Origin: Escherichia coli
GTDB lineage: Bacteria > Pseudomonadota > Gammaproteobacteria > Enterobacterales > Enterobacteriaceae
NCBI RefSeq assembly: GCF_003334385.1
Contig: NZ_QOWN01000038.1
Strand: one strand, 5' to 3'
DNA length: 42,323 bases
Made by a program: the position numbers and the translations under genes. The notes beneath the pieces were generated by a model. The model ran no database searches, was not told the origin of the DNA, and saw nothing but the letters and a program-made list of their open reading frames with translations. Shown one piece after another: positions 41,301 through 42,323 of the stretch; positions within the stretch are counted from its first letter, which is position 1; the number at the start of each line of letters is the position of its first letter.

Positions 41301-41684
41301 TTATTTTCCGTGGCCAAAATTCAGAATTCTCCCATCATTTTTGCCTATTTCTATAATAAAAACCCCACCAGCAATTTGGTCTGAGTGAATGGTACCTTCA
41401 ACAACCCAACTTGTTGTTAACTCAGTGATTTCGTATGGTTTTTCTTCTTCTGCGGCATCCTGTCCATAACGATTCTTAACATATATCTCAGCTAATTCCA
41501 ATGCTATAGCTTTATTTTTAACCAAATTTCTAACGGTATATTTACCTTCACTTTCATACTTGCGCATTATTTTAATATTATTATTACACTGCGCCCATGT
41601 GTTGTATGTAAAAACAAACAAAGATACAATGACACAGTTCCTAAACAATATTTTTTTACATATTACCATGAACTCTGCAGACAT
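41301..41684 (-). CDS. yhhH: Small protein downstream of the Rhs C-terminal tip (candidate cognate immunity protein; YhhH-like)
   Basis: 127-aa ORF whose ATG (41684) overlaps the last 29 nt of the Rhs ORF; N-terminal hydrophobic segment ([20 protein letters not shown]); AT-rich. Symbol assigned from position after rhsB as recalled for K-12; not sequence-verified. Confidence 0.6.
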
Positions 41685-42323
41685 TAGGTAATCCTTTTCT
41701 GTTTGTTATTTCCTTCCCGTGGTTATCTATTGCTTTAAAATTACCACTGGGCGTACCTAAATAAAATGACTTGATATTGTTATCTTTACTTTTAACTATT
41801 TTCTCATCTTTACCTGAAAATATTTCGTCCCAATATTCTCCATGACTATCTGCACCATGAGTATGATAAGCTGATACTTTCTCAGTACCATTAGGGCAAG
41901 GGCTATTGAATGGATATGATCCTTTTCTTTCTCCTCGGTTAGGTGCTGTTGAGAAATATCTGCCACTATTATCCTTACATATTAAACCAGCGAACTCTTT
42001 ATCTTCGCAAATAGATTGGCTATTTATTTTATTTAAGGCGTCATATGCGGTGCTATCTATAGAATCAAATTTATCTGGACCTATCATAGCGGATAGTGTG
42101 CCGCAAAGACCATTAGTACATGCCCCCGATTTTGCATCCTCCCACATAGATAAACCCAGGGGGTCGATGTCTGATATCGGATTCAATTGATATCCATACA
42201 GGTTCCATCCCCCCTTCAGTCCAATCGGATCCTGAGTGATATATCGCCCCTGCAGCGGGTCATAATAGCGGTGGCGGTTGTAATACAGGCCGGACTCCTC
42301 ATCATACTGCTGCCCCGGCAGGC
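41656..42323 (-). CDS. Rhs-family protein, C-terminal end: conserved core terminus plus variable toxin tip (partial; N-terminus lies right of the window)
   Basis: Minus-strand frame is open from the window edge: [57 protein letters not shown], the conserved Rhs core end with the PxxxxDPxGL motif, followed by a 165-aa divergent, Cys-containing C-terminal domain ending HGNM-stop. Could be rhsB or an orphan fragment; not distinguishable here. Confidence 0.85.

What the first reader, a model, noticed from the sequence alone, without database searches (positions are those of the whole stretch)
41301..42323. Rhs C-terminal toxin tip with overlapping downstream small ORF (toxin/immunity pair)
The right edge holds the conserved Rhs core terminus (…[11 protein letters not shown], fitting PxxxxDPxGL) followed by a 165-aa C-terminal domain unlike the core (several Cys, a [14 protein letters not shown] segment). 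Immediately downstream and overlapping by 29 nt is a 127-aa ORF with an N-terminal hydrophobic segment. This is the classic architecture of a polymorphic Rhs toxin and its cognate immunity gene. The toxin activity is not recognizable by eye.
Basis: partly seen in the sequence, partly recalled or inferred. Interest (0 to 1): 0.55.

Follow-up and report, generated by a model that had tools for sequence, protein, structure and literature searches.

The report
E. coli RhsB toxin, YhhH immunity
This is the already catalogued end of the E. coli rhsB gene, its toxin tip and the overlapping yhhH immunity gene. The pair is ordinary, but the evidence here suggests the untested toxin is a zinc peptidase-like enzyme acting in the periplasm, not the RNase it is usually labelled.

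Summary
The last 57 codons of an Rhs core (…DPIGL-x17-DPLGL) are followed by a 164-aa tip. A 127-aa ORF overlaps the tip's end by 29 nt.

It is E. coli rhsB/yhhH. The tip plus yhhH is ≥99% identical in 2,632 of 5,426 complete E. coli genomes and is annotated as such. Pfam gives DUF4329 for the tip and Imm-NTF2-2 for YhhH. This is the Tox-JAB-2/Imm-NTF2-2 pairing listed by Zhang et al. in 2012. No experiment on this pair was found.

What I add concerns mechanism:
- The tip keeps a JAMM-like zinc motif (E52, H96-T-H98, S112-x2-D115), nearly invariant in 121 homologs.
- It folds confidently (pLDDT 95). Its closest solved structures are JAMM isopeptidases.
- Its six cysteines behave as three pairs.
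- YhhH and all 10 other downstream partner genes examined start with a signal peptide or lipoprotein signal.
- One homolog is fused to a peptidoglycan peptidase domain.

The "RNase" label in the literature traces to an untested suggestion. I propose a periplasm-acting metallo-(iso)peptidase, with moderate confidence.

The parts
42151..42323 (-). 3' end of the rhsB core (57 codons; the gene runs off the window edge), ending in the DPIGL-x17-DPLGL motif that marks the core/tip boundary
   Evidence: Open frame. It is 100% identical to annotated rhsB in E. coli genomes. Full-length RhsB with an identical 3' end has DUF6531 + RHS repeats + RHS core. The profile of tip homologs also matches this segment in solved Rhs/Tc structures.
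41659..42150 (-). RhsB C-terminal toxin tip, 164 aa, Tox-JAB-2 / DUF4329 domain (stop codon at 41656..41658)
41995..41997 (-). Codon for E52 of the tip (E-F-A-G, the JAMM 'E-x-x-G' glutamate), predicted catalytic base
   Evidence: Present in 121 of 121 aligned homologs. Invariant in A3.
41806..41865 (-). Codons for H96-T-H98 … S112-G-K-D115, the predicted zinc site (JAMM-like HxH…SxxD)
   Evidence: H96 120/121, T97 118/121, H98 120/121, S112 118/121, D115 121/121.
41592..41684 (-). yhhH codons 1-31: predicted Sec-type signal peptide ([15 protein letters not shown] | [12 protein letters not shown] | NTWA↓Q); the first 29 nt overlap the end of rhsB
   Evidence: ORF. W30-A31 are invariant while the hydrophobic core varies among homologs. 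It passes the hydrophobicity/charge heuristic. No SignalP was available.
41304..41591 (-). yhhH mature domain (96 aa), Imm-NTF2-2 family; stop codon at 41301..41303
40850..41211 (-). Decayed yibA-like (HEAT-repeat, RhsA-type immunity) gene: an 86-codon ORF ended by an AAA→TAA change, with homology then cut off by the ISAs1 element
   Evidence: NCBIfam PRK09687, residues 1-81 of 285, E 1e-30. Aligned with the intact yibA that follows a yhhH-like gene in strain 98200. Annotated as a HEAT-repeat pseudogene in ATCC 8739.
39569..40705 (-). yhhI, ISAs1-family ('H-repeat') transposase ORF, intact here (378 aa); marks the distal end of the Rhs element
   Evidence: ORF. Annotated yhhI / ISAs1 family transposase at the same place in ATCC 8739, where it is a pseudogene.

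Best explanation
The region is the distal end of the E. coli RhsB element.

**Inferred from solved Rhs structures and the conserved motif.** The Rhs YD-repeat shell encloses the 164-aa tip and releases it by self-cleavage at DPLGL↓S.

**Inferred from the literature, not testable in this window.** In strains with a type VI secretion system the protein is fired into neighbouring cells.

**Shown here.** The tip is a JAB/JAMM-fold domain with an intact E…H-T-H…S-x-x-D zinc site.

**My inference.** The tip works in the target's periplasm as a zinc-dependent amidase or (iso)peptidase on an envelope substrate. Likely substrates are peptidoglycan stem-peptide or cross-link bonds, or the Lpp-peptidoglycan link. 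It is stabilised there by three disulfides (C11-C16, C48-C158, C58-C85). YhhH is exported by a Sec signal peptide and blocks the tip in the producer's, or a sibling's, periplasm.

**Confidence by layer.**
- Toxin/immunity pair: about 0.9.
- Periplasmic site of action: about 0.7.
- Peptidase rather than nuclease chemistry: about 0.55.
- Specific substrate: unknown.
For: **Identity and pairing.** Supported.

**Motif.** E52, H96, T97, H98, S112 and D115 are invariant or nearly so in 121 homologs.

**Exported partners.**
- YhhH keeps an N-terminal hydrophobic segment ending in an invariant W-A while its core varies.
- The paralog YbbC starts MKYSSIFSMLSFFILFAC, which is lipobox-like.
- The partners in L005, Serratia, Pseudomonadales and Bdellovibrionales are YhhH homologs with classical signal peptides. 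The Planctomycetota partner is a weak match to that family and has a lipobox.
- Partners apparently unrelated to YhhH in L006, L007 (lipobox ISAC), L009 and L021 also start with signal peptides.
- In total 11 of 11 pass a crude signal-peptide test, against 9 of 30 long ORFs in the window. The cytoplasmic-type YibA fails it.

**Cysteines.**
- All six are conserved in the 51%-identical RhsD tip.
- C58 and C85 covary across the family: both present in 50 sequences, neither in 55, one only in 16.
- C48 and C158 are lost together in one clade member.

**Domain fusion.** One homolog carries a Peptidase_M15_4 (cell-wall D-Ala-D-Ala carboxypeptidase family) domain upstream of DUF4329.

**Immunity fold.** It resembles extracytoplasmic peptidase-inhibitor-type domains: PepSY, M4/M36 propeptides, cystatin and latexin. 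It also resembles the periplasmic colicin M immunity protein.

**The RNase label is untested.**
- Zhang et al. wrote only that such domains 'might function as nucleases'.
- A review states that Ma et al. 2017 tested only Rhs-CT1, CT3 and CT5, and that CT5-CT8 are 'putative RNase'.
- A 2024 preprint says the activity and substrate are still unknown.
Against: - No experiment exists on toxicity, neutralisation, localisation or chemistry.
- No SignalP was available, so signal peptides were judged by eye and by a crude heuristic. YhhH's is atypical: 31 aa, with R15/N16 before the hydrophobic core.
- A Salmonella survey using SignalP 6.0 lists the partners of its three DUF4329 Rhs entries as having no TM or signal peptide; two are CdiI-like. 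I could not check those sequences.
- Most characterised Rhs tips act in the cytoplasm.
- The H-x-H to S spacing is 13 residues, not the canonical 7. Zhang et al. report that the ubiquitin-tail tunnel residues are not conserved.
- The M15 fusion is a single protein with a modest E-value (3e-5).
- The 11 partners are not independent. Seven belong to one family, the Planctomycetota member only weakly.
Confidence: 0.6

Rival explanations
1. The tip is a cytoplasm-acting nuclease (RNase or DNase), as it is labelled in T6SS effector surveys. YhhH would then neutralise it in the cytoplasm or at the inner face of the membrane.
For: - Zhang et al. 2012 argue that toxin JAB domains, like RadC, diverge from ubiquitin-processing JABs and 'might function as nucleases'.
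- Later papers repeat 'RNase'.
- Most characterised Rhs tips are nucleases (general knowledge).
- The Salmonella survey reports no signal peptide on the partners of its three DUF4329 Rhs entries.
Against: - According to the review and preprint read here, no nuclease assay was done on this family.
- All 11 partner genes inspected begin with export signals, across more than one partner family.
- The cysteine pairs are conserved or covary.
- The closest solved structures are isopeptidases.
- One homolog is fused to a cell-wall peptidase domain.
Confidence: 0.2
2. In many carriers, such as K-12-type strains without a matching T6SS, the pair is not used as a weapon. It would be a silent relic, or a self-maintaining toxin-antitoxin-like module, kept by linkage or addiction rather than by competition.
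For: - The element is flanked by decay: a nonsense-mutated, IS-truncated yibA-like gene and an ISAs1 element.
- IS1 splits rhsB in several strains.
- No Pfam PAAR domain was detected in full-length RhsB.
- A paper on Salmonella reports Rhs elements acting as type II TA-like modules (title and abstract only, PMC7043789).
Against: - The tip and yhhH are intact and ≥99% identical in 2,632 genomes.
- Every catalytic motif residue is retained.
- This rival concerns deployment, not what the proteins are. It is compatible with the best explanation.
Confidence: 0.15
3. The tip is a deubiquitinase-like JAB effector aimed at eukaryotic host ubiquitin or UBL conjugates.
For: The nearest solved structures are ubiquitin/UBL isopeptidases. 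Viral structural relatives exist.
Against: - A tightly linked, overlapping immunity gene indicates a bacterial target.
- The partners are exported to the bacterial periplasm.
- The UBL tunnel residues are reported as not conserved.
Confidence: 0.03

Closest known systems
Tox-JAB-2 (Pfam DUF4329) toxin with Imm-NTF2-2 immunity, as catalogued in polymorphic toxin systems (Zhang et al. 2012, PMC3482391)
   Same: It is this family. The Pfam matches are strong. It has the same motif (E, H[ST]H, S, D), the same RHS carrier and the same toxin/immunity pairing.
   Different: The catalogue lists Imm-NTF2-2 as 'E. coli only' and suggests nuclease activity. Here the immunity family is also found in Serratia, Pseudomonadales, Bdellovibrionales and, weakly, Planctomycetota loci, always with an export signal. 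That points away from a cytoplasmic nuclease.
E. coli RhsD tip with YbbC (paralogous pair)
   Same: Same tip family at 51% identity, with all six cysteines and the HTHGADSHG motif. The partner is 56% identical in the mature region and belongs to the same YbbC/YhhH family.
   Different: It sits at a different chromosomal locus. YbbC has a lipobox-like LFAC signal rather than the …TWA↓Q site. The level of divergence suggests the pairs may not cross-protect, which is untested.
JAMM/MPN+ metallo-isopeptidases (AfJAMM, PfJAMM1, Rpn11, BRCC36, AMSH, CBASS Cap3, BilC)
   Different: The spacer between H-x-H and S is 13 residues rather than 7. The tip has extra N-terminal helices and cysteines. It is secreted and toxin-borne, and is predicted to act outside the cytoplasm. 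No ubiquitin-like substrate is expected.
T6SS periplasmic peptidoglycan amidase effectors with periplasmic immunity (Tae/Tai, Tse1/Tsi1 type; from general knowledge)
   Same: The proposed logic is the same: an amide-bond hydrolase delivered to the periplasm and neutralised by a signal-peptide-bearing immunity protein.
   Different: Those are small cargo effectors with NlpC/P60-CHAP cysteine-peptidase folds. This is an Rhs-encapsulated JAB-fold zinc enzyme whose substrate is unknown.
RadC (JAB-fold protein proposed, but to my knowledge not shown, to be a nuclease)
   Different: RadC is cytoplasmic, is not a toxin and has no exported partner.

Membership tests
Rhs polymorphic toxin (C-terminal tip plus immunity) | YD/RHS-repeat shell upstream of the tip | tested here: met
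   Only 57 core codons lie in the window. The stretch is 100% identical to genomes where the ORF is the 1,411-aa rhsB, with DUF6531, at least 11 RHS repeats and the RHS core.
Rhs polymorphic toxin (C-terminal tip plus immunity) | Conserved DPxGx(~18)DPxGL / PxxxxDPxGL motif at the core/tip junction | tested here: met
   …[28 protein letters not shown]|S…. The same segment aligns to solved Rhs/Tc proteins.
Rhs polymorphic toxin (C-terminal tip plus immunity) | The tip varies between strains exactly after the motif; composition shifts | tested here: met
   Strain 98200 at the same locus has an identical core up to …IDSMGL, then an unrelated tip and partner. GC is 29-39% in the tip and yhhH, against about 49% at the core end.
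Rhs polymorphic toxin (C-terminal tip plus immunity) | The tip is toxic and the downstream gene neutralises it | not testable with these tools
   No experiment was found in the library.
Rhs polymorphic toxin (C-terminal tip plus immunity) | PAAR domain / T6SS linkage for delivery | tested here: inconclusive
   Pfam found no PAAR_motif in residues 1-1200 of full-length RhsB, only DUF6531 from residue 46. Surveys count EHEC RhsB among PAAR-Rhs proteins. No T6SS genes lie in the window.
Tox-JAB-2 / DUF4329 | Profile match to PF14220 | tested here: met
   E 1.1e-39, model positions 2-114 of 116.
Tox-JAB-2 / DUF4329 | Conserved E, H[ST]H, S, D | tested here: met
   E52, H96-T97-H98, S112 and D115 are present. 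They are 97-100% conserved in 121 homologs.
Tox-JAB-2 / DUF4329 | JAB (deaminase-like α+β) fold | tested here: met
JAMM/MPN+ metallo-isopeptidase | Motif E-x(n)-H-x-H-x(7)-S-x(2)-D | tested here: inconclusive
   All residues are present, but the spacer is 13 residues, not 7.
JAMM/MPN+ metallo-isopeptidase | Zinc binding and isopeptidase activity on a ubiquitin-like tail | not testable with these tools
   Zhang et al. report that the UBL-tunnel residues are not conserved. I did not check this myself.
Imm-NTF2-2 (YbbC/YhhH) immunity | Profile match to PF15631 and position directly downstream of a Tox-JAB-2 tip | tested here: met
   E 3.4e-26, the full model. Overlaps the tip ORF by 29 nt. The same arrangement is seen in L004, L005, L013, L015 and L018.
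Imm-NTF2-2 (YbbC/YhhH) immunity | NTF2-like α+β fold | tested here: met
Sec-exported (periplasmic) protein | N-terminal signal peptide: charged n-region, hydrophobic h-region, small residues at -3/-1 or a lipobox | tested here: inconclusive
   The features are present by eye and by a crude heuristic in YhhH and in 10 of 10 other partners. No SignalP or experiment was available. A published SignalP run on Salmonella DUF4329 partners reports none.
RNase / nuclease toxin | Demonstrated nucleic-acid cleavage or a recognised nuclease motif | not testable with these tools
   No nuclease family was hit in Pfam or NCBIfam. The label rests on an untested suggestion.

The most novel reading that the evidence does not exclude
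Tox-JAB-2/DUF4329 tips, including E. coli RhsB-CT and RhsD-CT, would be JAB/JAMM-fold enzymes that act outside the cytoplasm. They would be periplasm-acting, disulfide-stabilised zinc (iso)peptidases that cut an envelope amide bond, in the peptidoglycan stem peptide or cross-link or at the Lpp-peptidoglycan link. Exported NTF2/PepSY-like inhibitors would neutralise them. The widely copied 'RNase' annotation would then be wrong, and an Rhs cage would be delivering a periplasmic rather than a cytoplasmic toxin.
Probability: 0.45. Interest if true: 0.6.

Novelty: already known. Interest (0 to 1): 0.3.

Why it matters
As a locus it does not matter much. rhsB/yhhH has been annotated in E. coli K-12 for decades, and the toxin/immunity family pairing was published in 2012.

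The residual value lies in the chemistry. This toxin sits in about half of all sequenced E. coli, has never been assayed, and carries an 'RNase' label copied between surveys without a test.

If the periplasmic metallopeptidase reading is right, three things follow:
- The annotation would be corrected.
- A new enzyme class would join the envelope-targeting T6SS effectors.
- The JAB fold would gain its first extracytoplasmic substrate.

The reading is directly testable with a few plasmids in K-12.

Tried and rejected
- **PDB sequence searches.** The tip and YhhH as single sequences gave nothing relevant. The family profile A3 matched only the Rhs core end. No solved structure of either family is therefore detectable by sequence.
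- **NCBIfam.** No model matched the tip or YhhH. PHROGs gave only a marginal hit to a family of unknown function.
- **Phage search.** tblastn of a family-typical sequence against GenBank phages found no match. The IMG/VR scan returned only two E. coli-like contigs. The BFVD fold search found JAB/RadC-like viral proteins, including Xanthomonas phage Xop411 p25, but no functional names.
- **Genome scan.** With an 8-sequence alignment it used one narrow pattern and gave only 9 loci, three of them E. coli DNA in mis-binned MAGs. The survey of partner genes is therefore small (11).
- **Literature.** The primary source of the RNase label, Ma et al. 2017, Environ Microbiol 19:345, is not held. I relied on how a review and a preprint describe it.
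- **Complex prediction.** I considered modelling the tip-YhhH complex as a linker fusion. I rejected it because the tool returns no coordinates or PAE, so an interface could not be read. For the same reason Cys-Cys distances could not be measured.
- **Alternative start.** I considered that the hydrophobic N-terminus of YhhH might be untranslated, with a start at M40. I rejected this for three reasons: the ATG at 41684 has a good AAGGA Shine-Dalgarno sequence, M1 is nearly invariant, and the segment stays open and hydrophobic in homologs down to 65% identity.

Full report
**1. What is in the sequence**

The features lie on the minus strand. From the right edge of the window, one frame is open down to a TAA at 41658..41656. 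It reads …[57 protein letters not shown], followed by a 164-aa tail, [11 protein letters not shown]…NVCRVHGNM. The tail has six cysteines and the [14 protein letters not shown] segment.

A 127-aa ORF (41301..41684) starts 29 nt before that stop. An AAGGA Shine-Dalgarno sequence lies 7 nt upstream of its ATG (read). GC falls from about 49% at the core end to 29-39% over the tail and the small ORF.

**2. What it is**

The 1,124-bp stretch is 100% identical in thousands of complete E. coli chromosomes, where it is annotated rhsB and yhhH. In ATCC 8739 the gene order is nikR, rhsB (1,411 aa), yhhH, a HEAT-repeat pseudogene, yhhI (ISAs1 family), yhhJ, rbbA, yhiI. That is the order seen in the window.

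The tail plus yhhH alone is ≥99% identical in 2,632 of 5,426 genomes. A paralogous pair, rhsD-ybbC, matches at about 69% DNA identity. Full-length RhsB with the identical 3' end has DUF6531, many RHS repeats and the RHS core domain.

Pfam assigns the tail to DUF4329 (E 1e-39) and the small protein to Imm-NTF2-2 (E 3e-26). Zhang et al. 2012 list exactly this pairing: Tox-JAB-2 ('DUF4329 in Pfam', conserved E, H[ST]H, S, D) with 'Imm-NTF2 family 2'.

The variable boundary is confirmed by comparison. In strain 98200 the Rhs gene at the same locus shares the core up to …IDSMGL. It then carries an unrelated tail and an unrelated partner. A displaced yhhH-like gene and an intact yibA lie further downstream in an orphan array.

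The toxin/immunity interpretation is supported, and the locus is already known. I found no experiment on RhsB-CT/YhhH or RhsD-CT/YbbC.

**3. The toxin domain**

A search of 1.84 billion representative proteins found 757 homologs. Most are C-terminal tips of Rhs or other polymorphic toxins. Some are fused to VgrG, PAAR or eCIS-core domains.

In 121 aligned domains the following residues are invariant or nearly so:
- S46 120/121
- E52 121/121
- H96 120/121
- T97 118/121
- H98 120/121
- S112 118/121
- D115 121/121

The pattern E-F-A-G … H-T-H … S-G-K-D is the JAMM zinc-site pattern. The spacer is 13 residues rather than the canonical 7.

**4. Where the 'RNase' label comes from**

[quoted passage not shown] Later surveys call DUF4329 an RNase, citing Ma et al. 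2017.

A review states that Ma et al. tested only Rhs-CT1, CT3 and CT5 experimentally, and that CT5-CT8 are 'putative RNase'. A 2024 preprint says the activity and substrate of Rhs-Tox-JAB-2 are still unknown. I could not read Ma et al. itself. On this evidence the label is untested.

**5. Evidence that the toxin acts in the periplasm**

(a) *Export signals on the partner genes.*
- YhhH begins [31 protein letters not shown]↓QC. Among homologs down to 65% identity the hydrophobic core varies, while W30-A31 are invariant. One homolog has an entirely different but equally hydrophobic N-terminus.
- YbbC begins MKYSSIFSMLSFFILFAC.
- A third enterobacterial partner begins MKRILMGIYLLFPICSVA.
- In the Serratia, Pseudomonadales and Bdellovibrionales loci from the genome scan, the gene directly after the DUF4329 tip is a YhhH homolog of about 100 aa. 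phmmer E-values are 1e-7 to 1e-12. Each has a classical signal peptide.
- The Planctomycetota partner has a lipobox. It matches only one other member of that family, and weakly (E about 3e-4).
- Partners with no detectable similarity to YhhH in four metagenomic loci also start with signal peptides or a lipobox.
- All 11 pass a crude hydrophobicity and charge test. So do 9 of 30 long ORFs in the window, while YibA does not.

(b) *Cysteines.*
- All six cysteines of the tip are kept in the 51%-identical RhsD tip.
- C58 and C85 covary across the family: 50 sequences have both, 55 have neither and 16 have one.
- C48 and C158 are lost together in one clade member.
- This fits three disulfides, which are expected in an oxidising compartment.

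(c) *A domain fusion.* One homolog fuses a Peptidase_M15_4 cell-wall peptidase domain to DUF4329. It is followed by a signal-peptide ORF that overlaps its stop codon by 4 nt.

(d) *The immunity fold.* The mature YhhH model (pLDDT 83) most resembles PepSY domains, M4/M36 protease propeptides, cystatin, latexin, VirB8/NTF2-like periplasmic domains and the colicin M immunity protein. This similarity is generic and weak, but it points in the same direction.

**6. Caveats**

- No SignalP was available.
- The partners are partly homologous to one another, so the 11 cases are not independent.
- A Salmonella survey using SignalP 6.0 lists no signal peptide for the partners of its three DUF4329 Rhs entries; two are CdiI-like. 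I could not inspect those sequences, and the family may be heterogeneous.
- Pfam found no PAAR domain in RhsB, and the window holds no T6SS genes. Delivery is therefore inferred from the literature.

**7. Mechanism proposed**

*Inferred from established Rhs structures and the conserved motif:* the Rhs shell encloses the tip and self-cleaves at DPLGL↓S.

*My inference from section 5:* the tip reaches the target periplasm and folds with three disulfides. It then uses E52 and the zinc bound by H96, H98 and D115 to hydrolyse an amide bond in an envelope substrate.

Because characterised JAB enzymes cut isopeptide bonds, three substrates are the most attractive guesses. These are the peptidoglycan cross-link, the γ-D-Glu-mDAP bond and the Lpp-Lys-mDAP link. 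None of them is supported by direct evidence.

YhhH, exported by its signal peptide, would bind and block the tip.

**8. Surroundings**

Directly after yhhH lies a yibA-like HEAT-repeat gene, the partner type of RhsA. It has an AAA→TAA nonsense change at codon 87 and is then truncated by the ISAs1 'H-repeat' element yhhI. Strain 98200 has the intact version after a displaced yhhH-like gene. This is the usual debris of successive tip displacement in Rhs elements.

**9. Verdict**

The feature is real. The locus is already known.

Interest is modest (0.3). It comes only from the unassayed chemistry and from the likely mislabelling as an RNase. The most novel reading not excluded is a periplasm-acting JAMM (iso)peptidase family. 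I give it about 0.45 probability.

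Noticed in passing
window 40850..41211 (minus strand): A yibA-like HEAT-repeat gene (RhsA-type immunity) sits right after yhhH. It is killed by an AAA→TAA change at codon 87 and then cut off by the ISAs1/H-repeat element. Strain 98200 has an intact yibA in the same position after a yhhH-like gene.
   Followed up: yes
L003 (E. coli strain 98200, same chromosomal locus), 1..7900: A different Rhs tip (ASKYGHLNNGG…) sits at the rhsB locus. Its partner also starts with a signal peptide (MKRALFFLLMIFVSFGVIA). An array of orphan immunity genes follows: NTF2-fold, DUF6258, pentapeptide fragments, a frameshifted yhhH-like gene, and yibA. 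Exported partners may therefore be common among E. coli Rhs tips.
   Followed up: partly
hits H1-H5 (e.g. NZ_CP116929.1 255002..256902): In several E. coli strains an IS1 element splits rhsB just upstream of the tip. This leaves a separately annotated 'DUF4329 domain-containing protein' plus yhhH.
   Followed up: no
L021 3001..5291 (JGI metagenome 3300013121): A 569-aa protein combines a Peptidase_M15_4 cell-wall peptidase domain (SEHALGNAVD…MHFE) with a C-terminal DUF4329. A 194-aa signal-peptide ORF follows and overlaps its stop by 4 nt. This is a possible two-headed envelope toxin with a double-size immunity protein.
   Followed up: partly
L016 845..2116 and L017 1619..2860 (Gammaproteobacteria MAG; Candidatus Thioglobus MAG): These 413-423-aa non-Rhs proteins have a long unassigned N-terminal region, a hydrophobic stretch and a C-terminal DUF4329. 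No small partner gene lies downstream. They may be housekeeping, non-toxin members of the family.
   Followed up: no
L010, L011, L012 (GTDB MAGs labelled Lachnospiraceae, Flavobacterium psychrophilum, Alistipes); L019, L020 (IMG/VR): Short contigs carry E. coli rhsB or rhsD tip DNA. Three match the query tip at 100% and two carry the RhsD-type tip at 53%. They sit in MAGs of unrelated taxa and in 'viral' contig sets, which most likely reflects mis-binning or contamination.
   Followed up: no
window 30588..32231 and 32493..34115 (plus strand): Two adjacent paralogous ORFs of about 540 aa are annotated YhiJ/YhiL family / DUF4049 in E. coli. The second contains a VLAGNHE segment reminiscent of metallophosphoesterase motifs. 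Function is unknown.
   Followed up: no
(L013, L015, L018; L014 weakly): Imm-NTF2-2, described in 2012 as restricted to E. coli, has clear homologs next to DUF4329 tips in Serratia, Pseudomonadales and Bdellovibrionales. A weak match exists in Planctomycetota. All end in a conserved …GG…(H/R)GK C-terminus.
   Followed up: partly
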